A DNA stretch of 47,591 nt from a virus (taxonomy: Duplodnaviria; Heunggongvirae; Uroviricota; Caudoviricetes), in IMG/VR virus record IMGVR_UViG_3300045988_142058. One strand, given 5' to 3'. The translations under genes were made by a program, and so were the position numbers. This document shows, in pieces, positions 1-47,591 of the stretch (position 1 is its first letter; each line of letters starts with the position of its first letter). A model generated the notes under the pieces. The model ran no database searches and had not been told where the DNA came from. It saw only the letters and a list, made by a program, of their open reading frames with translations.

Positions 1-1517
1 GAGGTTGTCACGTACTTGTTATCGCCTGAGACATCAACTGACTTTGTTGCAGCAATTGATGCCATATTAATAGCCGAAGTTTGCCCAACCAGAGAATCGT
101 TGCAGACAAACTTTCCATAGGTAAAACCAAAACTATCCGTCCCGGTTTCGGGAACATCCATATTTGACGATCGCCCCCAACTGGCAGGGCTTTCCGAATT
201 GAGCATGTAGTTCGTTCTTTGCCCCTCAATAAGCAGGCCATCACGTTCAAATCGTGGCTCGTCAATGGCAGCCTCTGTCAGCACACCAGATTTATTTATA
301 TAGGTTGCTTTCGATGCGCGTTTAAACTTTACAACCTTATCGCCAGGCATCGTTATTTCATCATCACCAATAACAATCTTTTTATATGACGGCGAAAACC
401 CCGTAATCATATCCAGTGAATCGTTAAACGGTATCCACACATCAGGTAGCGGTTGAATAATCTTCCGGGCATCCTCCAGTGGCAATGCTTCGATATCCGA
501 GGCTGTTAAAGTAATATCTGACGAACCGTCAAATGAAACGTTGTTAATCTTCCGTGCAGTTTTTAATTTCGTTGCGGTGTCGGCGTTCCCCGTCAGTGCG
601 CCGTTGAGTCCGCCGTTGAAAATCTGGCGTTCACTCCATGTGTTAGCCGTGCTCAACAGGGGGATCTTTTCACCGCTTGTGCCGAGTTCTCTTAAACCAA
701 GGTACTGGATAACAGCAAGGACACTTGTTTTAGCCAGAATATTACGGCCGACTGACGTTAAATCAGCCAGGGCTACTGTGTCTTTACCGGTAAAGTACGG
801 CAATTTATTTGCAGCCGTCGCAAGTCCTGCCAGAGCGGTGAGCGTATCATCTGCTGGTTGTTTTTGCTTTGCTAGGTCAAACACTTCTTTGACGGCTTTT
901 GGCGTTGCAGCGCGCGTTTCAGAAGTACTGTTAGTGTCACTACTGAGTTGAACAATGCCTTTTGAGGTTAAAGTTGCATCAGGATGATTACGTGATTGCT
1001 CATGTTTTACAATGGCTTGCTTAAGTCGCTTTGCTGAAACAGCTAGGGAATCATCTGTACCTGCATCAATTTCTTGTTCATTAGCAAATCTTGCTACTCC
1101 AACAACAGTTTCGGTTGCGGGCGGGTTAATAAACTCAACATCACCAAATGTAATGTTTTTAGTATCAAGATTTTTAATTGCTATATCACTTGATATTAAA
1201 GCAATTGTAGAAGATGCTTTATTTATTATTACTTGTTCTTGCGAGTATACAGCAAACAATGTTCCTTTATTTGTATACAAACCTATTGTATGGACAACAT
1301 ACTCATCTTTACTATCATCCTTCGCAGTTACATGAATGGTATCAGGAGAAACGACTTTGCCTCCTATTGTGGTAAGTCGCTTTATTTCATCTGTTATTTC
1401 TGTTTGTGTGGTTGATGTGACATAATATCTACTACCTAAACCAACAGAAACGATCTCAACTTTATTTGTTCCAGTCTTGTTGGCATTAACCAGCTCCTGA
1501 CGCCCGGCGTCAGTCAT
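1..1517 (-). CDS. Tail fibre protein, N-terminal ~505 codons; gene continues across the circular junction into 46668..47591
   Basis: Minus frame open from ATG at 1517 (possible GTG at 1538 with AAGGA RBS) to position 1; absent from ORF track because no stop in window. Manual translation MTDAGRQELVNANKTG... contains fibre-type repeat [27 protein letters not shown]. Confidence 0.7.
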   Translation of the reverse strand, partial: MTDAGRQELVNANKTGTNKVEIVSVGLGSRYYVTSTTQTEITDEIKRLTTIGGKVVSPDTIHVTAKDDSKDEYVVHTIGLYTNKGTLFAVYSQEQVIINKASSTIALISSDIAIKNLDTKNITFGDVEFINPPATETVVGVARFANEQEIDAGTDDSLAVSAKRLKQAIVKHEQSRNHPDATLTSKGIVQLSSDTNSTSETRAATPKAVKEVFDLAKQKQPADDTLTALAGLATAANKLPYFTGKDTVALADLTSVGRNILAKTSVLAVIQYLGLRELGTSGEKIPLLSTANTWSERQIFNGGLNGALTGNADTATKLKTARKINNVSFDGSSDITLTASDIEALPLEDARKIIQPLPDVWIPFNDSLDMITGFSPSYKKIVIGDDEITMPGDKVVKFKRASKATYINKSGVLTEAAIDEPRFERDGLLIEGQRTNYMLNSESPASWGRSSNMDVPETGTDSFGFTYGKFVCNDSLVGQTSAINMASIAATKSVDVSGDNKYVTT

Positions 1518-3267: not shown

Positions 3268-3584
3268 TCTCTAACTCCTATCACAAGTTTTGGCCTAATA
3301 AAACCATCAGAAACGTCCGTTCTTTCAAAAGTAACAGAATGGATAATCGCTCTAGGCTCAAACTCACTAATTTTTTGAATTATTTCTCGTGTTGCTGTAG
3401 CAATAAAAATTGGACTGGGGCTATCAACAAGACTTGAATTAACTCCTAATTTTCTGGCATATGGTACAGTGCCTATCTGAGTATTAATAATAGTAGAGAC
3501 ATTTTGCAAAACTTCTTCTACAACTGTTTTGGGCGACCAATCAATCGAGTAAGAAGGTGATGATATGGTAAACGTATTATTCAT
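3264..3584 (-). CDS. Baseplate wedge protein, gpW/GP46-like
   Basis: 106 aa; overlaps neighbours by 4 nt; V-W-J-I gene order. Confidence 0.5.
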   Translation of the reverse strand: MNNTFTISSPSYSIDWSPKTVVEEVLQNVSTIINTQIGTVPYARKLGVNSSLVDSPSPIFIATATREIIQKISEFEPRAIIHSVTFERTDVSDGFIRPKLVIGVRE

Positions 3585-4048
3585 AATAATTTACCTAACG
3601 CACTTCTAGTTTTTGACTCTATATTGCCAGTAATATCAACTAATGCTTCTTTCAGAGAGGTCTGTCCGACTTCCTGTAATTTAATGCCAACGATAATCAC
3701 TCGTGGATTCCCAGTTGGACCGAAATAAGTCCATGATTCCTCTATATCTGTAATTATAAAATTACCAAAATACTGAATGCCAATTACAACAGGATTTACT
3801 TCCTGAATTGATTGCATTGTCCTAAGTAATGAAAGCGCAGCCAATGGAACAATGCCAAGTGTTGTATCCAACCGCATATTAAAACTAACTTCATCCAGAT
3901 CTGGACCTATATCCTCCAGAACAGGTTTAAGCCCAATAACATCATGGCGCGCTACACGACGCTTTGACGTCCTTTTAAAATTGTTGAACGTATTCACCAC
4001 TATTGATGAGGCAACAAAAGGCATTGTACCAAGCATACCCACAATCAT
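3581..4048 (-). CDS. Hypothetical tail/baseplate-associated protein
   Basis: 155 aa, translationally coupled within the baseplate cluster. Confidence 0.4.
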   Translation of the reverse strand: MIVGMLGTMPFVASSIVVNTFNNFKRTSKRRVARHDVIGLKPVLEDIGPDLDEVSFNMRLDTTLGIVPLAALSLLRTMQSIQEVNPVVIGIQYFGNFIITDIEESWTYFGPTGNPRVIIVGIKLQEVGQTSLKEALVDITGNIESKTRSALGKLL

Positions 4049-24855: not shown

Positions 24856-25121
24856 TCATCATCTCCTGCCGCACATACAACCTCACAAAAAACATCAGCG
24901 GAATGTTTCTCCTTGAACGAATGACGCTCAAAACCGCACTCAATATCAGGCGCAAAAACATCCACCACATACGGTCTTTCAGAATGTTTGTTTTCCCAAC
25001 GATAAACCGTAGTGACGTTGAAATGTTTTAACGCTTCACGGAACTCAACGCTGCCCGTCAGGTTTTTTGAGGTCAGGTATTGCAGGAGGTTTTTTACTAC
25101 TTCACGGTCTTGTACTTTCAT
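24852..25121 (-). CDS. Hypothetical protein, first gene behind cassette copy 1
   Basis: 89 aa; ATG at 25121 preceded by cassette GGAG RBS. Confidence 0.45.
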   Translation of the reverse strand: MKVQDREVVKNLLQYLTSKNLTGSVEFREALKHFNVTTVYRWENKHSERPYVVDVFAPDIECGFERHSFKEKHSADVFCEVVCAAGDDE

Positions 25122-25230
25122 CGGGTTATCTCCGGTTTAACCAGGGCGGGTATCGCTCGGTTTCGGGTATAACCATAGGAAATTTTTTCCCACCTGTAAA
25201 GCACTTTTTATATAAATCTATAATTATATA
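25122..25230 (-). promoter_or_regulatory. Promoter-leader cassette copy 1
   Basis: ~109 bp near-identical to copies at 32043..32150 and 40979..41087; putative -35 TTTACA (25195..25200), -10 TATGGT (25172..25177), leader with GGAG RBS. Confidence 0.6.
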
Positions 25231-25233
25231 ATT

Positions 25234-26129: not shown

Positions 26130-26205
26130 TGGTGGCCCCTACCGGATTTGAACCGATGACCGTGCGATTATGAGTCGCCTGCTCTAACCACTGAGCTAAG
26201 GGGCC
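26130..26205 (-). tRNA. tRNA with CAU anticodon, tRNA-Ile2 (lysidine)-like, CCA encoded
   Basis: 76 nt cloverleaf GGCCCCUUAGCUCAGUGGUUAGAGCAGGCGACUCAUAAUCGC...GGUUCAAAUCCGGUAGGGGCCACCA; 7-bp acceptor stem; resembles E. coli ileX from memory; elongator Met not excluded. Confidence 0.8.
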
Positions 26206-26374
26206 ATATTTGATCTGTTTGTCTGGTGTGGCGCCGCGCACGAAAATCCCAGCCAATAAATTCAGGATTTTTGGGCGCGGCGGCATATCAGACAAACATG
26301 GTTGATGCGTGCGCTAATGAGAAAAGCGCATAGAATGTTGTAACTATATATTTATATAATTATAGAAATATATA

Positions 26375-26584
26375 TTACTTTGGACAGTTGATTTCCCATG
26401 CCCTGTTATGAGCCAGAATATCTTTCTTTGTCTGGCGGTCCATAACATCGATATCGTGATCAGTCAGGTAGATGGGCTTTACCCAATCACAGGCGGTATC
26501 AACCACCACCGGGACGCTTCCACGACTCCCGCAGCTCGCGATCAACATCGTCATCAGCCATATGGTTAACACTCTGCTGTACAT
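26375..26584 (-). CDS. Outer-membrane spanin Rz1-like lipoprotein
   Basis: 69 aa; lipobox-like LIASC; overlaps 3' end of Rz-like gene in another frame. Confidence 0.55.
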   Translation of the reverse strand: MYSRVLTIWLMTMLIASCGSRGSVPVVVDTACDWVKPIYLTDHDIDVMDRQTKKDILAHNRAWEINCPK

Positions 26585-30974: not shown

Positions 30975-32042
30975 TCAGGCTTTCAATAGCGATTCTTTCA
31001 GATATCGGGCATCAGCCAGGGCATTTGGAGTAATCTTGCGAACCCATGCATTACGGGTTGGACTCCACTTAAAGGCGCGTGATTTAAGCAGCGAACGAAT
31101 GTTTGCCTCTGGTTTGCCAGGGAAATAAAACAGGATGCGGTTATCCTCTGGATCTATCTCCATAGAAAAGTCGTCGTATTCTTCGCGCTGTGCTCCTGTT
31201 ACAGACTTGACCGATTCAAGCTCCTTAATACGGCTCTGTAGTCGTTTGATCTCGGCGTTATTGTTGCTCAGTGCGTATGAAGGGAATCCGATGCGCCCAC
31301 AGAAATCTCCGGCCAGTAACTCTTTGGCTTCGCTTTCTGTAAACCTGAGATCGATTAATGCAGAAAGCTGCTGTAATTGGTCTTTTTTGTATTTGCGAAT
31401 GGCCTTATTTGCGGCCTTCATTTTGACGTGTGACTTCATGCAGCCTTGCAGCTTACGAAGCAACTTAAATAGCGCATCAGGATCATCAGACGAAATTCCA
31501 TTACGACCAACACCTGCGGCTTTGCTCTCGTAGTGTGATGCTTTACTTTCGCATTCAACAAACGCTTTTCTGAATAACGCATCAGCTTTAGACAAACGGC
31601 GGCGATGGCCTTTCGCGCTATAATGGTCAACTAAAATCGGCTGGCCTAACGGGATCACATCCAACAGGTCATGCGCTCGCTTATGCGCTACCGCACCTTC
31701 TTTTCTGGCTTTTTCTGCACGAGCAATATATCGGGCAAGACGCGCGTTCTGGCGTTCCTGATAGGTGTTTACGTAATCATCTCCGCGCTGCTGCTGTTCA
31801 AGCCATGCTTTACGCAGATCTTCTGTTACGTCCACCAGCTCCGCAGGGATACAACCAGTTTGGGCTTCATAAGAGTAACCATCCTCATAGATACGCCCAT
31901 CGTCTTCAACAAAGAAAAAGGTTTCGTGCTCATCGCTTTTGACCATACGACCATTAACATGGCGTAATAGGTAGCCAGTATCAGTGCTTAACAGGCTGTT
32001 AGGGTTGTTGATCCAGTCAGAAATAATTACTTGTTTATTCAT
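30975..32042 (-). CDS. DUF3560-like protein, first gene behind cassette copy 2
   Basis: 355 aa; start at cassette RBS; family call from memory only. Confidence 0.4.
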   Translation of the reverse strand: MNKQVIISDWINNPNSLLSTDTGYLLRHVNGRMVKSDEHETFFFVEDDGRIYEDGYSYEAQTGCIPAELVDVTEDLRKAWLEQQQRGDDYVNTYQERQNARLARYIARAEKARKEGAVAHKRAHDLLDVIPLGQPILVDHYSAKGHRRRLSKADALFRKAFVECESKASHYESKAAGVGRNGISSDDPDALFKLLRKLQGCMKSHVKMKAANKAIRKYKKDQLQQLSALIDLRFTESEAKELLAGDFCGRIGFPSYALSNNNAEIKRLQSRIKELESVKSVTGAQREEYDDFSMEIDPEDNRILFYFPGKPEANIRSLLKSRAFKWSPTRNAWVRKITPNALADARYLKESLLKA

Positions 32043-32150
32043 CAGATTTCTCCGGTTTAACCAGGGCGGGTATCGCTCGGTTTCGGGTATAACCTTAGGA
32101 AATTTTTTCCCACCTGTAAAGCACTTTTTATATAAATCTATAATTATATA
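32043..32150 (-). promoter_or_regulatory. Promoter-leader cassette copy 2
   Basis: Differs from copy 1 at -10 (TAAGGT) and in ~8 nt next to ATG; lies between Q-like gene and lysis-containing operon. Confidence 0.6.
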
Positions 32151-32211
32151 TTTATAGATTTTCGATGTTCCCGATGTCTACACACCATCAAAACAGCTCA
32201 AAATGACACTT

Positions 32212-35864: not shown

Positions 35865-35884
35865 AAGCGGGCTAACGCCCGCTT
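35865..35884 (+). terminator. Hairpin terminator after gene 35486..35860
   Basis: 8-bp stem AAGCGGGC/GCCCGCTT, loop TAAC, then AU-rich sequence. Confidence 0.4.
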
Positions 35885-36010
35885 ATATGATTATAGTTTT
35901 ATATAATTATATAAAACGCTTTTCATCCGCCAAAAAGTTGGTTATGCTTACCTCGTTCTATAAATATAGATTTATAGAATTATATAACCAAACACATGGA
36001 GTCTCGACAA

Positions 36011-36664
36011 ATGACTATCTCTGTAGGTATTTTCAACGGAAAAGGCGGCGTAACCAAATCAACAATTGCCCGTGCTTTAGCAGTTGCTTATGCAAAGGCT
36101 GGCTGGAATGTATGCCTGATCGATATGGATGTGCTTAACGGAACGGTAACGCGTTGGGTACAACGCAGAATGGCCAACAATATCGAACCAGCAATCGCGG
36201 CGCAGCCGTGCGGCACACCATCACAAGTCCAGAAAATCATCGAATCAGAAGTATACGACCTGGTTATCGTCGATGGCGGTGCCTACGCATCTGAATCAGT
36301 ACCGAAGCTCTCTGAATTTCTGGATATGGTTATTTTGCCAACCAGATTCTCTACCGATGACCTGGAAACCACCGTTAACACAGCTCATGGCATCGTTAAA
36401 AAGGGTGTGCCAATCAAGAAAATTTGCATGGTGTTCTCAGGCGCGGCTGAAAACGAAGCCGACTACATTGAAGCCCAAGAGTACCTGGCTAATACGCCAT
36501 ACTTTGTTGTCGATAAGTACATTCCCCACAAGCCAGCTCTGAGCAAAGCTCAGGATAAGGGCTTAAGCCTCATTGAGTGCTCATACGTTGCGCCACGCAA
36601 AAAGGCAGACGACGTTATTCAGGGGATTATCAACCAGCTTGAGGCTCTGACTACTGCCGCGTAA
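36011..36664 (+). CDS. parA: ParA-like partition ATPase (small, type Ib-like)
   Basis: Deviant Walker A FNGKGGVTKST; start at second ATG with GGAG RBS. Confidence 0.8.
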   Translation: MTISVGIFNGKGGVTKSTIARALAVAYAKAGWNVCLIDMDVLNGTVTRWVQRRMANNIEPAIAAQPCGTPSQVQKIIESEVYDLVIVDGGAYASESVPKLSEFLDMVILPTRFSTDDLETTVNTAHGIVKKGVPIKKICMVFSGAAENEADYIEAQEYLANTPYFVVDKYIPHKPALSKAQDKGLSLIECSYVAPRKKADDVIQGIINQLEALTTAA

Positions 36665-36707
36665 TATATAATTATAGTTTTATAGATTTATATAAGAGGG
36701 TATACAC

Positions 36708-37178: not shown

Positions 37179-37200
37179 AAAAAAGGCCCCCGAAGGGGCC
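37179..37200 (-). terminator. Intrinsic terminator for small-peptide transcript
   Basis: GGCCCC-cgaa-GGGGCC followed on minus RNA by UUUUUU; 7 nt after peptide stop. Confidence 0.6.
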
Positions 37201-37206
37201 TAATCG

Positions 37207-37329
37207 CTACTTGCTGCTAATGTTTATCGTCACATTCAGAGCGTTATCAGTAATCTTCCAACCCTCCCCATGTGGCGTAAACAAAGCTCCAGTAACAACG
37301 ATAAAAATACACATACAGTATTTTTTCAT
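37207..37329 (-). CDS. Small hydrophobic peptide (40 aa), candidate type I toxin
   Basis: MKKYCMCIFIVVTGALFTPHGEGW...; AAGGG RBS; intrinsic terminator immediately after stop; upstream leader carries 15-nt antisense target. Confidence 0.4.
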   Translation of the reverse strand: MKKYCMCIFIVVTGALFTPHGEGWKITDNALNVTINISSK

Positions 37330-37622
37330 TGTATGGCCCTTACAGGCCGTTTCACGGCATCCCCACCGACGAAAACAACGCGAGAGCAAGCACGGCTGCT
37401 TGTGCTTGCATGTACGGCAACAGGAAATCCTCCCCTAAAGTCGGTGCCCGGGTGCGAATCGGCGGGAAGGTCCACAGGTATTTTACGATTATTTTAAGAT
37501 TAGTAATAGGAAAGAAATTAAACGAAAAAAACAGTTTATTTTCACAAAATCAGTAACCTACCCACAATCTGTGAGTTTGCTGACACAACAAGAACCACAA
37601 TTTTTTGATGTATAATAGTGGA

Positions 37623-37753
37623 CTATTATTACCTTTTGAGTAAAATCAATTTGCTGCTTGTGCTTGCGTGGTTGTTTATACAACAACGTAATGCTGAAAG
37701 GACCGCGAATCCGATCAGCACGAAAGAACCGTCCTCAATAGGGCGGTTTTTTT
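37623..37753 (+). ncRNA. Candidate ~130 nt small RNA (antitoxin-like)
   Basis: TATAAT -10 at 37611..37616; intrinsic terminator at 37728..37753; contains GCTGCTTGTGCTTGC (37653..37667). Confidence 0.4.
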
Positions 37754-37772
37754 GTTTCTGCCTACCAATAAA

Positions 37773-37787
37773 CCCACGCTATGTGGT
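37773..37787. promoter_or_regulatory. Near-operator CCCAC-gctat-GTGGT in antirepressor leader
   Basis: One mismatch to consensus; between sRNA terminator and ant operon. Confidence 0.3.
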
Positions 37788-37900
37788 TGTCTCTGTTAAA
37801 ATCCCGCCGTATTGACATGAATGCGCCATTGGTGGACACTTTCCGAGCCGTAGCAAAATCTACGGTCGGGATTAGCCTCCTGAATAACACGATGGCGCAT

Positions 37901-37921
37901 ACCGCGTTAGCGGTTTTTTTA
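37901..37921 (+). terminator. Second intrinsic terminator in antirepressor leader
   Basis: ACCGC-gtta-GCGGT followed by TTTTTTT. Confidence 0.45.
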
Positions 37922-38082
37922 TGCGTAGAGCACTGTTACGCCCAAATTATGGTGGGTCGTACAGGGGCGGAGAAATCCGCGCCGGTTCGTCATTGTGTCC
38001 GGTAAGGCTAACCCTGTACGGCTCACCACCATTTGATTAGCCTCGAATGGCGGTGATAGTTCCATATACTGGAGATATCACA

Positions 38083-38274
38083 ATGACAAACCTACCCCAT
38101 GACTATTACGTCAACCTCGTAAAGATCCTTCTCAAGAAAGCCTCATACGCCGATAAATTCCGCCTGGCTGAAATCATCGAGCGCGAAGCTATGCGCATCG
38201 CCAGCAACGATAACGCTGTTTCTGACGCAAAAATCTCCCTCGTAACCAAAGTAGTTATGGGAGGTGCAAAATGA
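38083..38274 (+). CDS. Hypothetical small protein upstream of antirepressor
   Basis: 63 aa, GGAGA RBS, stop overlaps antirepressor ATG. Confidence 0.4.
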   Translation: MTNLPHDYYVNLVKILLKKASYADKFRLAEIIEREAMRIASNDNAVSDAKISLVTKVVMGGAK

Positions 38275-39452
38275 AAACGCTTCCGACCGTTAACACCCTA
38301 CAGCCTATCCTGCATAACCAGCTCCCCGTTATCACTACTGAACTACTGGCGCAATTGTATGGAACCGAGCGCCAACGTCTGACAAACAATTTCAATAGAA
38401 ACAAGGAACGTTTTATAGAAGGTAAACACTTTTTTAGGATAGAAGGTAAAGAGTTACGAGAGTTGAAGAACAAAAACTCTTTAAGAGTTCCTGTGAGAGT
38501 AGTTAACGAACCATCTTTAAGAGGGTTACAAATTCCCCCGAAAGTTCGCTCCCTCATCCTCTGGACAGAACGCGGGGCTGCACGTCACGCCAAAATGCTT
38601 GAAACTAACCAAGCGTGGGATGTGTTCGAACGGCTGGAAGACTGCTATTTCAACCAGAACGCACAAACGGCCGCGACCGTTACCGTCTCGCCAAGCAATG
38701 CTCGTGAGGTTGTCGATACGCTCAACGCCAAACCGATGTTTTACATTAAGGTGTGCAATAACGAGCCACTCACAACCTCAGCCGATGTTGCCCAGGCATT
38801 CAGCACCACAAACAATTCCATCGTTATGGCCATCGATGCGTTACGCATTCCTCGCACAGCTGCGGCGCGTCATTTCTTTAAAGAGCAACGACCGTTGGAA
38901 GGAAGCGACCGCGAAATAACAATCTATCGCATGACAAAAGACGGATTTACCTTGCTCATGGAGAGCATCGACGGTCCAAGCGTGAAAGATATCAAGCTGG
39001 CCTACATTGAAGCCTTTAACGCTATCAGCAGCGTGTTAAAAACACAGTACGAGCGTGATCTGGCTAAACGACTGTACCAAGAAAAAACGATTATCCGCGC
39101 GGCAACAGAGCATAATCGGCTATTAACGGAACCGAACTACAGGAAGGAACTAATCAAGGAGTTTGACAAGGCAACAGGGAAAACCAAAGCGGCGCTAAAT
39201 CTGCCAGCAATGACTCAGGAAAATGTGATATCAGCCTTACTTCTTGATCTGCTCAGAAACGCCAGAGCACTTATCAGCTTTGACGAAAACCTGAATCCTC
39301 AGCTCAAGCTACTACCACCGACAGGCAAAGTAGTCGACCAAGCTGATCACAACAGCATACTCAGCGTACTGGATGCAAACCTGCCAGCCAAGACACTACA
39401 GGATCTGATAAAAACATGTGCTGATAAGCTGGCACAGAAAAGCAGACCATAA
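38271..39452 (+). CDS. Antirepressor (ORF6N/ANT N-terminus, Rha-like C-terminus)
   Basis: 393 aa; N-terminal LPVITTELLAQLYGTERQRLTNNFNRNKERF; terminator after stop. Confidence 0.75.
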   Translation: MKTLPTVNTLQPILHNQLPVITTELLAQLYGTERQRLTNNFNRNKERFIEGKHFFRIEGKELRELKNKNSLRVPVRVVNEPSLRGLQIPPKVRSLILWTERGAARHAKMLETNQAWDVFERLEDCYFNQNAQTAATVTVSPSNAREVVDTLNAKPMFYIKVCNNEPLTTSADVAQAFSTTNNSIVMAIDALRIPRTAAARHFFKEQRPLEGSDREITIYRMTKDGFTLLMESIDGPSVKDIKLAYIEAFNAISSVLKTQYERDLAKRLYQEKTIIRAATEHNRLLTEPNYRKELIKEFDKATGKTKAALNLPAMTQENVISALLLDLLRNARALISFDENLNPQLKLLPPTGKVVDQADHNSILSVLDANLPAKTLQDLIKTCADKLAQKSRP

Positions 39453-40597: not shown

Positions 40598-40978
40598 TTA
40601 CTTAACGAGGAATAAAAATGGTTTATTGTTCGGCGGTGTAATCGGGGCTGGCTCGCTTTTGCTCATGCGATCAGTGTACCAAGCCAACTCCTTGTCAAAG
40701 TAAGCCTGATTAAAATAGGCCATGAATGTAGTTTCAAATCCATAACGACCGCTAATACGCAGCATCTGATTGCCGTTCTCTGTTTCCAGATATACCTGGG
40801 CACGTTCCTGATTCTCCTTCAGCCAGGTTAAAGCCTCATCGCATGAGGACACACGATACTCATCATCGTAGCCGTCATCGATGCGGCTTGAGGAAGAACG
40901 GCAAATCACGCCAACAGAACCAGCCAGGATAGTTTGAATTTTAAGGAAAGCGTTTTTGCGGATTTTAATCATGCTCAT
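40598..40978 (-). CDS. Hypothetical protein, first gene behind cassette copy 3
   Basis: 126 aa; ATG at 40978 preceded by cassette RBS. Confidence 0.45.
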   Translation of the reverse strand: MSMIKIRKNAFLKIQTILAGSVGVICRSSSSRIDDGYDDEYRVSSCDEALTWLKENQERAQVYLETENGNQMLRISGRYGFETTFMAYFNQAYFDKELAWYTDRMSKSEPAPITPPNNKPFLFLVK

Positions 40979-41087
40979 CGGGTTATCTCCGGTTTAACCA
41001 GGGCGGGTATCGCTCGGTTTCGGGTATAACCTTAGGAAATTTTTTCCCACCTGTAAAGCACTTTTTATATAAATCTATAATTATATA
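40979..41087 (-). promoter_or_regulatory. Promoter-leader cassette copy 3
   Basis: One substitution relative to copy 1; heads operon 40598..40978 plus HTH gene. Confidence 0.6.
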
Positions 41088-41245
41088 AATAATAGTAACT
41101 GGTGTTTTTTTAGGCGAAGCATTAAACATTTTTGTTTAGCTTATTGGCAAGGTCTTGAAAAAGACATTTCAGCAATGCTATACCATTGAACATGGTATCG
41201 GCTGAATTTTGTAATTAACACATTTTAAACAATTTGAGGTGCCAA

Positions 41246-46668: not shown

Positions 46669-47591
46669 TAAATAACCTCAGCCATTTGTTGGTCTGTTAA
46701 TGCTTTATGCCATATTCTGAAATTCCTGATATGACCAAATAGATGACGTGCCCCTGATGTGGTTTGACCTCCTATTCTAATAAAGGTCCGCGTTTTTACG
46801 CCCGTCCATTCCGTTTCAATGGTTTTAGTAGCCTCACCGTTAGAAACTACTCGTTTAGTACCGTCAGAATAAATATTAAAACCACCAATGAATTTTCGAA
46901 CATCCGTTCGACCAGTAAACAAACTAGAAACGTAACTACTTGTCGACGCTTTATAAGTTTGCATATAAAGCTGACCGTAATATCTCTCGGTTGTGTTAAA
47001 AGCGTATGTGATTGACTCAATAGGCGGCACACCAGAAAAATCAAAAATACGCGGTGCTACATTAGGGGGAATATCGCCCCAATTCCTGTTAACCTCGACC
47101 AAACAAGTAAGCGGTCTGTTATAAATGTTGTTTTCGGTCGGGATCGTAACCATATCACTCGCACGAGTCGCCGCCGTCGTTCCTGATATAATAAAAGATG
47201 ATACACAAGGCCCATTTTCTACTTGTGGGGTGGCCAGATAAATATAGTCACCAGATACGGTTGCCCCGCCCTGCTTAGGAGAATACTGTATCTGAGAACC
47301 TATTTTTAACTCCCCATCAATTGCCTGAATTGTTGCCTCAGCAAAAATCCATCCTGTAGTTTCATCCTTCCTGACTCGTGCCGTAATTCTACCGGAAGCA
47401 CCACCTGTCATATTAATTTCAAGCGTTTGTGTATCAATATACGCATCACCAAGAAAAGTTGTTGCGCTACCGTCATACTTATCAAACCGTATACGTAACC
47501 TTACCTGTCGTTCTGTTTTAAAACGGCATGAGGTTGTCACGTACTTGTTATCGCCTGAGACATCAACTGACTTTGTTGCAGCAATTGATGC
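46668..47591 (-). CDS. Tail fibre protein, C-terminal portion (same gene as 1..1517)
   Basis: Same reading frame as 1..1517 across the 62-bp junction; complete gene ~2379 nt (~792 aa). Confidence 0.7.
   Translation of the reverse strand, partial: ASIAATKSVDVSGDNKYVTTSCRFKTERQVRLRIRFDKYDGSATTFLGDAYIDTQTLEINMTGGASGRITARVRKDETTGWIFAEATIQAIDGELKIGSQIQYSPKQGGATVSGDYIYLATPQVENGPCVSSFIISGTTAATRASDMVTIPTENNIYNRPLTCLVEVNRNWGDIPPNVAPRIFDFSGVPPIESITYAFNTTERYYGQLYMQTYKASTSSYVSSLFTGRTDVRKFIGGFNIYSDGTKRVVSNGEATKTIETEWTGVKTRTFIRIGGQTTSGARHLFGHIRNFRIWHKALTDQQMAEVI
47530..47591. repeat. 62-bp terminal redundancy identical to 1..62 (circular closure)
   Basis: Exact identity of the two window ends. Confidence 0.95.

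What the first reader, a model, noticed from the sequence alone, without database searches (positions are those of the whole stretch)
37179..37753. Divergent small RNA and small-peptide gene sharing a 15-nt repeat: candidate type I toxin-antitoxin
A 40-codon ORF for a hydrophobic peptide (37329->37207, AAGGG RBS, terminator right after the stop) sits ~300 bp from a plus-strand unit with a TATAAT -10 (37611..37616) and its own terminator (37728..37753). GCTGCTTGTGCTTGC occurs at 37395..37409 and 37653..37667; on the divergent transcripts these are perfectly complementary, and the peptide-side copy sits in the loop and 3' arm of a hairpin (37386..37409). This matches the layout of tisB/istR, shoB/ohsC and zorO/orzO, but the peptide resembles none of those toxins by eye.
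Basis: partly seen in the sequence, partly recalled or inferred. Interest (0 to 1): 0.8.

Follow-up and report, generated by a model that had tools for sequence, protein, structure and literature searches.

The report
Phage-plasmid copy of TimP/TimR toxin-antitoxin
The small peptide gene and the facing small RNA are a divergent, so far unannotated copy of the known TimP/TimR (ryfA) type I toxin-antitoxin system, carried on a 47.5-kb phage-plasmid instead of the chromosome and re-coded so that the host's own antitoxin RNA should not recognise it.

Summary
The minus strand 37179..37475 is a full-length match to Rfam ryfA (RF00126, 143.5 bits, cut-off 80). ryfA is the timP toxin mRNA of the enterobacterial timPR type I toxin-antitoxin system. 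The 40-codon ORF encodes a distant TimP homologue: 36% identical to K-12 TimP, and NCBIfam toxic_TimP E=7e-5, 23 bits, below the 45-bit cut-off. The plus-strand unit is homologous to K-12 TimR. Its 5' end aligns with 37653, so the RNA is about 101 nt (37653..37753), made from TGGACT-16-TAAAAT (37619..37646).

The shared 15-mer extends to an 18-bp duplex between the TimR 5' end and stem-loop 2 of the timP leader, the site tested experimentally in Salmonella. Eight loci carry seven clearly different seed sequences, each matched by its neighbouring sRNA. Predicted pairing with chromosomal K-12 partners is weak. The pseudoknot needed for timP translation is kept through compensatory changes.

The element is a whole circular phage-plasmid, and nearly every family member carries the locus, unannotated. 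The likely role, plasmid addiction, is inferred and untested. I class it as a new member of a known kind, of modest interest.

The parts
37179..37475 (-). timP (ryfA-family) toxin mRNA, about 297 nt: 146-nt structured leader, 40-codon ORF, intrinsic terminator
   Evidence: Rfam RF00126 ryfA, model positions 1-296 of 296, 143.5 bits against a gathering score of 80, E=5.5e-37. Whole-mRNA fold z=-3.66.
37480..37485 (-). Candidate -10 box (TAAAAT) of the timP promoter; start at about 37475-37473
   Evidence: Read from the sequence. The hexamer is kept as TAATAT or TACTAT at the same distance in variant plasmids and in L010. Not tested experimentally.
37429..37470 (-). SL1 of the leader; contains pseudoknot site 1, CACCGAC (37446..37440)
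   Evidence: Outer stem 100% paired in 13 sequences, with 2 pairs changed on both sides.
37414..37418 (-). Site 2 (GCCGU), complementary to the 5' flank of SL4 (ACGGC, 37350..37346)
   Evidence: 5 of the 6 pairs of the published site 2-4 interaction are kept; 88.5% of cells paired against 33-58% for slid controls. Site definition from PMC13000454.
37386..37409 (-). SL2: 8-bp stem and 8-nt loop, the antitoxin target hairpin
   Evidence: Aligned to the SL2 hairpin of the Rfam model. Predicted in every fold. 96.7% paired across homologues.
37395..37412 (-). TimR-binding site, mRNA positions +64..+81 (CAUGCAAGCACAAGCAGC): 5' arm and loop of SL2
   Evidence: 18-bp contiguous duplex with 37653..37670, one U.G, dG -35.9 kcal/mol. 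Same position as the 18-nt TimR site shown in Salmonella (PMC7667032, PMC11228461).
37352..37383 (-). SL3; contains pseudoknot site 3, GUCGGUG (37370..37364)
   Evidence: The site 1-site 3 helix is 7 bp and 100% paired in 13 sequences. Two pairs change on both sides between the plasmid and chromosomal clades.
37333..37350 (-). SL4, which sequesters the Shine-Dalgarno AAGGG (37341..37337)
   Evidence: CM alignment. Pairs 133/144 and 129/148 show compensatory changes.
37207..37329 (-). timP ORF, 40 codons plus stop: MKKYCMCIFIVVTGALFTPHGEGWKITDNALNVTINISSK
   Evidence: NCBIfam NF040796 toxic_TimP, E=7.1e-5, 23 bits, full length, below the 45-bit cut-off. BLASTP against K-12 TimP 36% identity, E=4e-8. 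Starts at +147 (Salmonella +145). 97-100% conserved where the intergenic DNA is 40-53%.
37179..37201 (-). Intrinsic terminator of timP (AGGCCCCUUCGGGGGCCU plus a U-run)
   Evidence: Terminator scan. 100% identical in all variants.
37619..37646 (+). Candidate TimR promoter: TGGACT - 16 nt - TAAAAT
   Evidence: Promoter scan. The -35 and -10 are kept in all plasmid variants and in L010/L025 (TAGACA-16-TAAAAA). Not tested experimentally.
37653..37753 (+). TimR-family antitoxin sRNA, about 101 nt: seed 37653..37670, hairpin 1 37664..37691, conserved hairpin 2 37693..37719 (CCGCGAA loop), terminator 37720..37753
   Evidence: Aligns with annotated K-12 timR b4811 from its first base. Consensus hairpin 2 and terminator with 4 compensatory pairs. 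Fold z=-5.13. 91-98% conserved.
37611..37616 (+).
   Evidence: Not conserved, and deleted in NZ_CP020518. It would add about 30 nt absent from K-12 TimR.

Best explanation
This is a timPR (ryfA/TimR) type I toxin-antitoxin locus carried on a phage-plasmid.

The minus strand makes a stable mRNA of about 297 nt. Its 146-nt leader folds into four stem-loops, and the last (SL4) hides the Shine-Dalgarno sequence. By homology to the Salmonella system, translation of the 40-aa membrane-targeted toxin requires two long-range contacts. One is a pseudoknot between SL1 (CACCGAC) and SL3 (GUCGGUG). The other is pairing of GCCGU with the 5' flank of SL4, which frees the ribosome-binding site.

The plus strand makes a TimR sRNA of about 101 nt. 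Its first 18 nt pair with the 5' arm and loop of SL2 (mRNA +64..+81). Binding opens SL2, destabilises the pseudoknot and blocks initiation, so no toxin is made while the sRNA is present.

The seed and loop sequence differs from every chromosomal version examined, so host TimR should not silence this copy, nor this sRNA the host toxin.

Inferred role: because the locus sits beside parA, is present in essentially every member of this phage-plasmid family, and the host always carries its own timPR, it most likely acts as an addiction (post-segregational killing) module for the plasmid prophage.

What is shown here: homology, the anatomy, covariation of the pairing, and predicted orthogonality. 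What is inferred: expression, toxicity, repression and the biological role.
For: **Identity of the toxin mRNA and peptide**
- Full-length Rfam ryfA match above the gathering score. The same family scores 166 bits in a second lineage, L010.
- The peptide is homologous to TimP over its whole length and starts at +147, against +145 in Salmonella (PMC7667032).

**Identity of the sRNA**
- It aligns with annotated K-12 TimR from base 1. It shares the conserved CCGCGAA-loop hairpin and the terminator, with compensatory pairs.

**The pairing**
- Cognate duplex is 18 bp, -35.9 kcal/mol.
- In eight systems the cognate pair is always the best (-31 to -42). Between groups the values are -12 to -32.
- Window TimR with K-12 timP gives -15.4; K-12 TimR with window timP gives -23.5.
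- Within the plasmid family, positions 3 and 5 of the 15-mer change together in both copies. L010/L025 have a different loop (UAACCUG) with a matched sRNA.

**Leader structure**
- 94.9% of cells paired against 36-47% for slid controls, with 9 pairs changed on both sides.
- The pseudoknot is 100% paired, with 2 compensatory pairs. The site 2-4 helix is 88.5% paired.

**Conservation and distribution**
- ORF 97-100% and TimR 91-98% identical where the spacer between them is 40-53%.
- 60 PLSDB plasmids carry the locus, against 58 with this parA and 59 with these tail genes. It is also in 3 isolated Yersinia phages and 8 IMG/VR contigs.
- All 5426 complete E. coli genomes carry a chromosomal timP, and that version is never on a plasmid.

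**Mechanism in the reference system:** PMC7667032, PMC11228461, PMC13000454.
Against: - Nothing here shows transcription, toxicity or repression for this copy.
- The peptide scores below NCBIfam's curated TimP cut-off (23 against 45 bits), and its C-terminal half is unlike chromosomal TimP.
- The site 1-2 pairing that locks the Salmonella mRNA in the inactive state is not kept in register: A x C at pair 35/61 and pair 37/59 broken in all 9 plasmid-clade sequences.
- Single-sequence MFE folding of the leader does not reproduce SL1, SL3 and SL4, and is not more stable than shuffles (z=-0.83).
- Against the addiction role: in Salmonella, deleting timR lets TimP be made from the native locus but does not slow growth (PMC7667032). 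Killing after plasmid loss is therefore not guaranteed.
- The three plasmid seed variants are predicted to cross-pair (-31 to -36), so they are not mutually exclusive specificities.
Confidence: 0.85

Rival explanations
1. Same locus and same RNA mechanism, but the job is defence rather than addiction. Infection by another phage shuts off host transcription, the short-lived TimR decays, and TimP kills or permeabilises the cell before the invader completes its cycle. This would be abortive infection or exclusion, as reported for hok/sok against T4.
For: The element is a temperate phage-plasmid. The locus lies immediately next to its immunity module, isrK / C4 RNA / antirepressor. Abortive infection is a documented activity of a type I system (cited in PMC13000454). 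In Salmonella, timP mRNA outlives TimR after rifampicin (PMC7667032).
Against: There is no direct evidence. No match to defence systems was sought or found. Adjacency to parA and near-universal presence fit maintenance equally well. The two roles are not exclusive.
Confidence: 0.25
2. The 297-nt RNA acts mainly as a non-coding regulator (the older 'RyfA sRNA' view: effects on stress resistance, biofilm and virulence). The plus-strand RNA is then its antagonist, and the small ORF is incidental.
For: The RyfA RNA has been linked to stress and virulence phenotypes in UPEC and APEC (PMC8205139, PMC13188913, PMC10664665). The leader is highly structured and conserved.
Against: The ORF is the best-conserved segment, at 97-100%. 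Between clades, 6 codons differ synonymously, and the frame, length, start and stop are all kept. The Shine-Dalgarno sequence, its sequestering hairpin and the translation-enabling pseudoknot are all preserved. In Salmonella, toxicity needs the start codon (PMC7667032).
Confidence: 0.08
3. The locus is a hitch-hiking or decaying copy. The RNAs may be made, but the divergent peptide is no longer toxic and the module has no function for the element.
For: The peptide is below the curated family threshold. The inactive-state lock (site 1-2) is not conserved. Native-level TimP is not growth-inhibitory in Salmonella (PMC7667032).
Against: Both transcripts are conserved islands around a replaced spacer. 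Seed and target co-vary. No frameshift or stop occurs in any of the variants examined. The locus is present in virtually all family members and in a second, 68%-identical peptide lineage with the same architecture.
Confidence: 0.07
4. The 15-mer is a chance repeat and the two units are unrelated.
For: 5.5% of Markov simulations of the window contain some 15-mer pair within 600 nt.
Against: Both units are homologous to the two genes of a validated system. The repeat sits at the homologous interaction site. It co-varies across seven clearly different seed sequences.
Confidence: 0.01

Closest known systems
timP/TimR (ryfA / STnc2070; RyfA1-RyfB1 in Shigella), the chromosomal enterobacterial type I toxin-antitoxin system (Rfam RF00126; NCBIfam NF040796; PMC7667032, PMC11228461, PMC13000454)
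   Same: - Divergent gene pair.
- mRNA of about 300 nt with a leader of about 145 nt folding into SL1-SL4.
- ORF of about 40 codons with an MK..C.CI..V.GAL N-terminus.
- Shine-Dalgarno sequence sequestered in SL4.
- SL1-SL3 pseudoknot and site 2-4 pairing.
- sRNA of about 100 nt whose extreme 5' end pairs with about 18 nt of SL2.
- Conserved CCGCGAA-loop hairpin and terminator in the sRNA.

   Different: - It is on a phage-plasmid, not between sseA and sseB. The chromosomal type is in 5426 of 5426 E. coli genomes and never on plasmids.
- The peptide is only 36% identical to K-12 TimP and falls below the curated cut-off. It has its own C-terminal motif, GEGWK..N.LNVTIN.S.K.
- The seed and loop sequence is different and predicted to be orthogonal.
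- The site 1-2 'off' pairing is not conserved in register.
- The spacer between the two starts is about 177 bp (37475 to 37653), against 400 bp to the annotated K-12 timR.
hok/sok of plasmid R1 (plasmid-borne type I addiction module)
   Same: A mobile-element-borne small membrane toxin held off by an unstable antisense RNA. It sits with plasmid maintenance genes. It is the model for the role proposed here (post-segregational killing, and T4 exclusion).
   Different: - No sequence or Rfam relationship.
- Sok overlaps hok in cis and acts through the mok reading frame after 3' processing.
- timPR is trans-encoded, needs no processing and uses a structural switch (PMC11228461).
tisB/istR-1, shoB/ohsC and zorO/orzO
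   Same: A divergent, non-overlapping toxin mRNA and sRNA, with limited complementarity far upstream of the ribosome-binding site in a long 5' UTR.
   Different: - No homology. The only Rfam trace is OrzO-P at 15.3 bits against a 60-bit cut-off, on the terminator alone.
- Those systems use standby-site or processing mechanisms. This one carries the timP pseudoknot elements.

Membership tests
timPR (ryfA/TimR) type I toxin-antitoxin | Toxin mRNA matches the ryfA covariance model (RF00126) at or above the gathering score, full length | tested here: met
   143.5 bits against 80, model positions 1-296 of 296.
timPR (ryfA/TimR) type I toxin-antitoxin | Conserved ORF of about 38-41 codons starting near +145, encoding a peptide homologous to TimP with a hydrophobic signal-like N-terminus | tested here: met
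   ORF at +147, 40 aa. BLASTP against K-12 TimP E=4e-8, 36% identity. NCBIfam toxic_TimP E=7.1e-5 over positions 1-40 of 40.
timPR (ryfA/TimR) type I toxin-antitoxin | Peptide reaches NCBIfam NF040796 curated cut-off (45 bits) | tested here: not met
   23 bits, against 86.8 for K-12 TimP. This is an annotation threshold built on chromosomal sequences, not a biological criterion. It explains why PGAP leaves the locus blank.
timPR (ryfA/TimR) type I toxin-antitoxin | Divergently transcribed sRNA upstream, ending in an intrinsic terminator, whose 5' end is complementary to SL2 of the timP leader | tested here: met
   18-bp duplex from sRNA position 1 to mRNA +64..+81. The cognate pair is best in 8 of 8 systems. 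Terminator.
timPR (ryfA/TimR) type I toxin-antitoxin | sRNA homologous to TimR beyond the seed | tested here: met
   38 invariant columns across 10 TimR sequences, including CCGCGAA. The shared hairpin and terminator have 4 compensatory pairs. Rfam has no TimR model to test against.
timPR (ryfA/TimR) type I toxin-antitoxin | Four-stem-loop leader with the Shine-Dalgarno sequence sequestered in SL4 | tested here: met
   94.9% of cells paired against 36-47% for slid controls, with 9 pairs changed on both sides. Single-sequence MFE does not reproduce it.
timPR (ryfA/TimR) type I toxin-antitoxin | SL1-SL3 pseudoknot (sites 1-3) required for translation | tested here: met
   CACCGAC / GUCGGUG, 7 Watson-Crick pairs. 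100% paired in 13 sequences; pairs 33/112 and 35/110 are compensatory. Requirement for translation was not tested.
timPR (ryfA/TimR) type I toxin-antitoxin | Site 2-4 pairing that opens SL4 | tested here: met
   GCCGU / ACGGC; 5 of 6 pairs kept; 88.5% paired.
timPR (ryfA/TimR) type I toxin-antitoxin | Site 1-2 pairing that locks the inactive conformation | tested here: inconclusive
   In the published register, pairs 35/61 and 37/59 are broken in all 9 plasmid-clade sequences. A register shifted by 3 columns pairs in 85.7% of cells.
timPR (ryfA/TimR) type I toxin-antitoxin | [quoted passage not shown] | not testable with these tools
   Shown only for the Salmonella homologue (PMC7667032).
zorO/orzO, tisB/istR, shoB/ohsC, hok/sok | Match to the family's RNA model or toxin | tested here: not met
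   No such family reached the gathering score anywhere in the window. OrzO-P scored 15.3 bits against 60, on the terminator only.

The most novel reading that the evidence does not exclude
timPR has a distinct mobile lineage that is a near-core maintenance or defence gene of a family of 47-49-kb myovirus-type phage-plasmids of Escherichia (also found in Klebsiella and in phages grown on Yersinia).

The SL2 loop and TimR seed would work as a fast-evolving address code. It insulates this copy from the chromosomal timPR that every E. coli host carries. After loss of the element, only the element's own toxin would escape repression.

If so, the still-unknown biological function of the chromosomal timPR loci might be understood as domesticated, or as anti-addiction, descendants of such elements.
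Probability: 0.4. Interest if true: 0.5.

Novelty: new member of a known kind. Interest (0 to 1): 0.3.

Why it matters
timPR has been studied in detail as an RNA switch, but only as a chromosomal locus, and its physiological role remains unknown. In Salmonella, removing TimR has almost no growth phenotype.

A copy that is close to universal in a phage-plasmid family offers a setting in which a role can be tested directly. It sits between the partition and immunity genes, and its predicted specificity does not overlap the host's. The measurable outcomes are plasmid loss, killing of segregants and phage exclusion.

The finding also has a practical side. The locus is blank in nearly all of the RefSeq, GenBank and PLSDB records of these plasmids and phages, because the peptide falls below the NCBIfam cut-off and TimR has no Rfam model. 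The seven clearly different seed and loop pairs found here are a natural set of candidate orthogonal RNA-RNA addresses.

Tried and rejected
- **Pfam:** no hit for either the window peptide or K-12 TimP.
- **Rfam at a permissive E-value on 37480..37860:** only sub-threshold terminator-driven matches (RNAI 26.7 bits against 47; OrzO-P 15.3 against 60). There is no TimR family in Rfam.
- **Collection scans:**
  - The accepted 16-base pattern gave mostly chance hits in genome contigs. Only 3 of 120 were real: E. coli, Citrobacter and E. whittamii.
  - In viral contigs 8 of 29 hits were real.
- **blastn in 'distant' mode against complete E. coli genomes:** the window locus did not reach the chromosomal ryfA at all. 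The link to timPR rests on the covariance model, the peptide profile and direct alignment.
- **Single-sequence MFE folding of the leader:** it nests the site 1-3 helix instead of drawing SL1 and SL3, and is no more stable than shuffles. It was therefore not used as evidence.
- **Phage-plasmid group:** my guess that the element belongs to the pSLy3 group was dropped. That group belongs to the SSU5 supercommunity, which I recall as elements of about 100 kb, roughly twice this size.
- **Prior reports:** searches for a plasmid- or phage-borne ryfA/timPR found none in the held library. T1TAdb itself could not be queried.
Full report

Yes. The 40-codon ORF (37329->37207), its AAGGG seven nt upstream, and the terminator hairpin 37201..37184 are all at the stated coordinates. 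So are the hairpin 37386..37409, the TATAAT at 37611..37616 and the terminator ending at 37753.

GCTGCTTGTGCTTGC occurs exactly twice in the window, at 37395 and 37653, on the same DNA strand. The divergent transcripts are therefore complementary there. It is the only exact 15-mer pair lying within 600 nt in the whole window. However, 5.5% of first-order Markov simulations contain some such pair, so the repeat alone is weak evidence. With flanks, the complementarity is 18 bp (37395..37412 with 37653..37670, one U.G).

**2. What is it?**

*The toxin mRNA.* A scan of the window against Rfam puts a full-length ryfA (RF00126) on the minus strand at 37179..37475: 143.5 bits against a gathering score of 80, E=5.5e-37. 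ryfA was first described as an sRNA. It is now known to be the timP mRNA of the enterobacterial timPR type I toxin-antitoxin system (PMC7667032). In that system TimP is a small inner-membrane toxin and TimR is a divergently encoded sRNA. TimR pairs through its 5' region with 18 nt of the timP 5' UTR and blocks translation. This was shown by toxicity rescue, compensatory mutants and in vitro translation.

*The peptide.* K-12 now carries annotations for timR (b4811), ryfA (b4440) and timP (b4812). The window peptide is MKKYCMCIFIVVTGALFTPHGEGWKITDNALNVTINISSK. It aligns end to end with K-12 TimP, MKIRCFCIVLIVSGALLTEVNNNRSLSGDNLLVVNNLQSSK (36% identity, E=4e-8). It hits NCBIfam NF040796 'toxic_TimP' over positions 1-40 of 40 at E=7.1e-5, but with 23 bits against a curated cut-off of 45; K-12 TimP scores 86.8. 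Pfam has no model. The ORF starts at +147 of the transcript, against +145 in Salmonella (PMC7667032).

*The sRNA.* The plus-strand unit is homologous to TimR. K-12 TimR (100 nt) begins GCTGTGAAGCACCTGCGTTGC. The window has GCTGCTTGTGCTTGCGTGGTTG at 37653. The two continue through a shared ...CTG.AAGG.CCGCGAA.C...AG.A...AAA.AACCG...CGGTTTTTT. Across ten TimR sequences the consensus fold keeps hairpin 2 (CCGCGAA loop) and the terminator, with four compensatory pairs. The window sRNA folds well (z=-5.13). Rfam has no TimR family.

**3. Start of the sRNA**

In K-12 the annotated 5' end is the first base of the seed. In the window, TGGACT (37619) - 16 nt - TAAAAT (37641..37646) places +1 at about 37653.

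This promoter is kept in all plasmid variants (TGGAC[T/A] ... TAAGAAT). It is also kept in the second lineage (TAGACA-16-TAAAAA), always 6-7 nt before the seed.

The sRNA is therefore most likely 37653..37753, about 101 nt. A longer minor isoform in this particular variant cannot be excluded.

**4. The interaction site**

The 15-mer lies in the Rfam model's SL2 hairpin. In mRNA sense, TimR covers +64..+81, which is the 5' arm and loop of SL2. This matches the Salmonella probing data: the loop is protected and the 3' side of SL2 is exposed on TimR binding (PMC11228461).

I collected further loci:
- seven plasmid or phage variants;
- a Logan contig encoding a 68%-identical peptide;
- eight IMG/VR viral contigs;
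- three chromosomal loci, from E. coli, Citrobacter and E. whittamii.

The SL2 loop is hypervariable. The sequences are:
- GCAAGCACAAGCAGC (window);
- GCAGGCACAAACAGC and GCAAGCACAAGCGG[U/A] (plasmid variants);
- GCAAGCACUAACCUG (L010/L025);
- GCAGGUGUUUCACAGC (K-12);
- GCAGACACCCCACAGUG, GCAGGCACACCGUAGUG and GCAAGCGCGUCUCAG (other chromosomes).

In every case the neighbouring sRNA starts with the matching sequence. In an 8 x 8 RNAduplex matrix the cognate pair is always the strongest, at -31 to -42 kcal/mol with helices of 12-20 bp. Pairs between groups score -12 to -32. The window sRNA on K-12 timP gives -15.4, and K-12 TimR on window timP gives -23.5 with a longest helix of 6 bp. The three closely related plasmid variants do cross-pair (-31 to -36).

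**5. The leader**

On a 13-sequence alignment, I tested the published architecture: SL1, SL2, SL3, SL4 and the SL1-SL3 pseudoknot.
- 94.9% of cells are paired, against 36-47% when partners are slid by 1-3 columns.
- Nine pairs are changed on both sides.
- The pseudoknot (window CACCGAC 37446..37440 with GUCGGUG 37370..37364; K-12 CGCUGGC with GCCAGUG) is paired in all 13 sequences. It has two fully compensatory positions.
- SL4 holds the Shine-Dalgarno sequence.
- The site 2-4 pairing that frees it (PMC13000454) is kept as GCCGU/ACGGC, 5 of 6 pairs.
- The site 1-2 pairing that locks the inactive form is not kept in register in the plasmid clade. A register shifted by three columns pairs better. 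I leave that open.
- Single-sequence MFE folding is not informative here.

**6. Context**

The window ends repeat (1-62 = 47530-47591), so it is a whole circular element of 47,529 bp.

Its first 24 kb are myovirus structural genes 98-99% identical to isolated phages, Yersinia phage vB_YpM_41 and Escherichia phage vB_EcoM-613R2. The same element occurs as 46-52-kb non-mobilizable plasmids of Escherichia, with single records in Klebsiella. It is a phage-plasmid.

The local gene order is:
- parA (35996..36664) and two small ORFs;
- timP (minus strand);
- TimR (plus strand);
- isrK (37847..37920);
- C4 antisense RNA (37945..38033);
- a small ORF;
- an ORF6N/antirepressor-like gene (38271..39452).

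In L010 the module sits on the other side of the immunity genes.

Distribution:
- The locus is in 60 PLSDB plasmids, against 58 with this parA and 59 with these tail genes.
- It is in 72 of 5426 complete E. coli genomes, in 73 places on plasmids and one on a chromosome.
- The chromosomal timP is in all 5426 genomes and never on a plasmid.
- In nearly all of those plasmid and phage records nothing is annotated under the match.
- The peptide clusters come only from Logan assemblies.

Across plasmid variants the ORF is 97-100% identical, TimR 91-98%, and the leader 84-98%. The spacer between the two promoters is 40-53% identical outside the closest relative.

**7. How it most likely works**

By homology (inferred): a stable timP mRNA is made constitutively. 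It switches into a pseudoknot-containing, translatable form. TimR binds SL2 of that form, unravels the pseudoknot and blocks initiation.

Specific to this copy (shown computationally): its address differs from all chromosomal addresses examined, so host TimR should not protect against it.

Role (inferred): the position beside parA, the near-core status and the obligatory co-residence with a chromosomal timPR make an addiction module the best guess. Phage exclusion is the main alternative.

The chief caveat is that native-level TimP is not growth-inhibitory in Salmonella lacking TimR (PMC7667032).

**8. Novelty**

The kind is known, and the membership tests that can be run are met, apart from an annotation threshold and one regulatory helix.

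I found no report of a plasmid- or phage-borne timPR in the held literature. T1TAdb and Rfam's full-hit lists could not be inspected.

I rate it a new member of a known kind, with modest interest (0.3).

Noticed in passing
window 1-62 and 47530-47591: The two ends of the window are identical over 62 nt, so the window is one complete circular element of 47,529 bp with an assembly overlap. Its first 24 kb are myovirus structural genes 98-99% identical to isolated phages. The element is a phage-plasmid.
   Followed up: partly
window 37847-37920, 37945-38033, 38271-39452: Immediately downstream of TimR lies a P1 immI-like immunity module: isrK (65.7 bits), C4 antisense RNA (70.8 bits), a small ORF, and an ORF6N/antirepressor-like gene. 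In the related contig L010, Rfam also calls the c4 a1/b1 target element.
   Followed up: no
window 25118-25231, 32038-32151, 40975-41088: Three direct copies of a 114-nt sequence (91-100% identical) are scattered over 16 kb of the non-structural half. Their function is unknown.
   Followed up: no
window 35884-35925 and 36665-36706 (also 26337-26386): AT-rich 42-nt repeats (TATATAATTATAGTTTTATA...) bracket parA and recur near 26.3 kb, with an inverted partner at 32129-32170. They are candidate partition sites or operators.
   Followed up: no
window 26133-26205 (minus strand): A tRNA gene (67 bits), with CAU at the anticodon position in the alignment, is carried by the element.
   Followed up: no
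L001 (E. coli K-12 NC_000913.3) about 3683-3779 of the locus, i.e. 2653682-2653778, minus strand: K-12 has a second, unannotated TimR-like gene between the annotated timR and ryfA. It has its own copy of the promoter, the seed GCUGAGACGCGCUUGC, the conserved CCGCGAA hairpin and a terminator. Its seed matches the SL2 of E. whittamii timP rather than that of K-12. A remnant of a second timP 5' end lies at about 3545-3560. This looks like a collapsed tandem duplication.
   Followed up: partly
chromosomal loci L046, L100, L117 versus L001: The SL2 loop and TimR seed are hypervariable even among Escherichia chromosomes: four different seeds in four loci, each matched by its neighbouring sRNA. This suggests ongoing diversification of specificity.
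   Followed up: partly
L003 3579-4151; L008 3829-4401: In the ATCC 25922-type plasmids and the Yersinia phages, a helix-turn-helix gene is inserted right after the TimR terminator, where the window goes straight into isrK. The timPR-to-immunity junction is a recombination hot spot.
   Followed up: no
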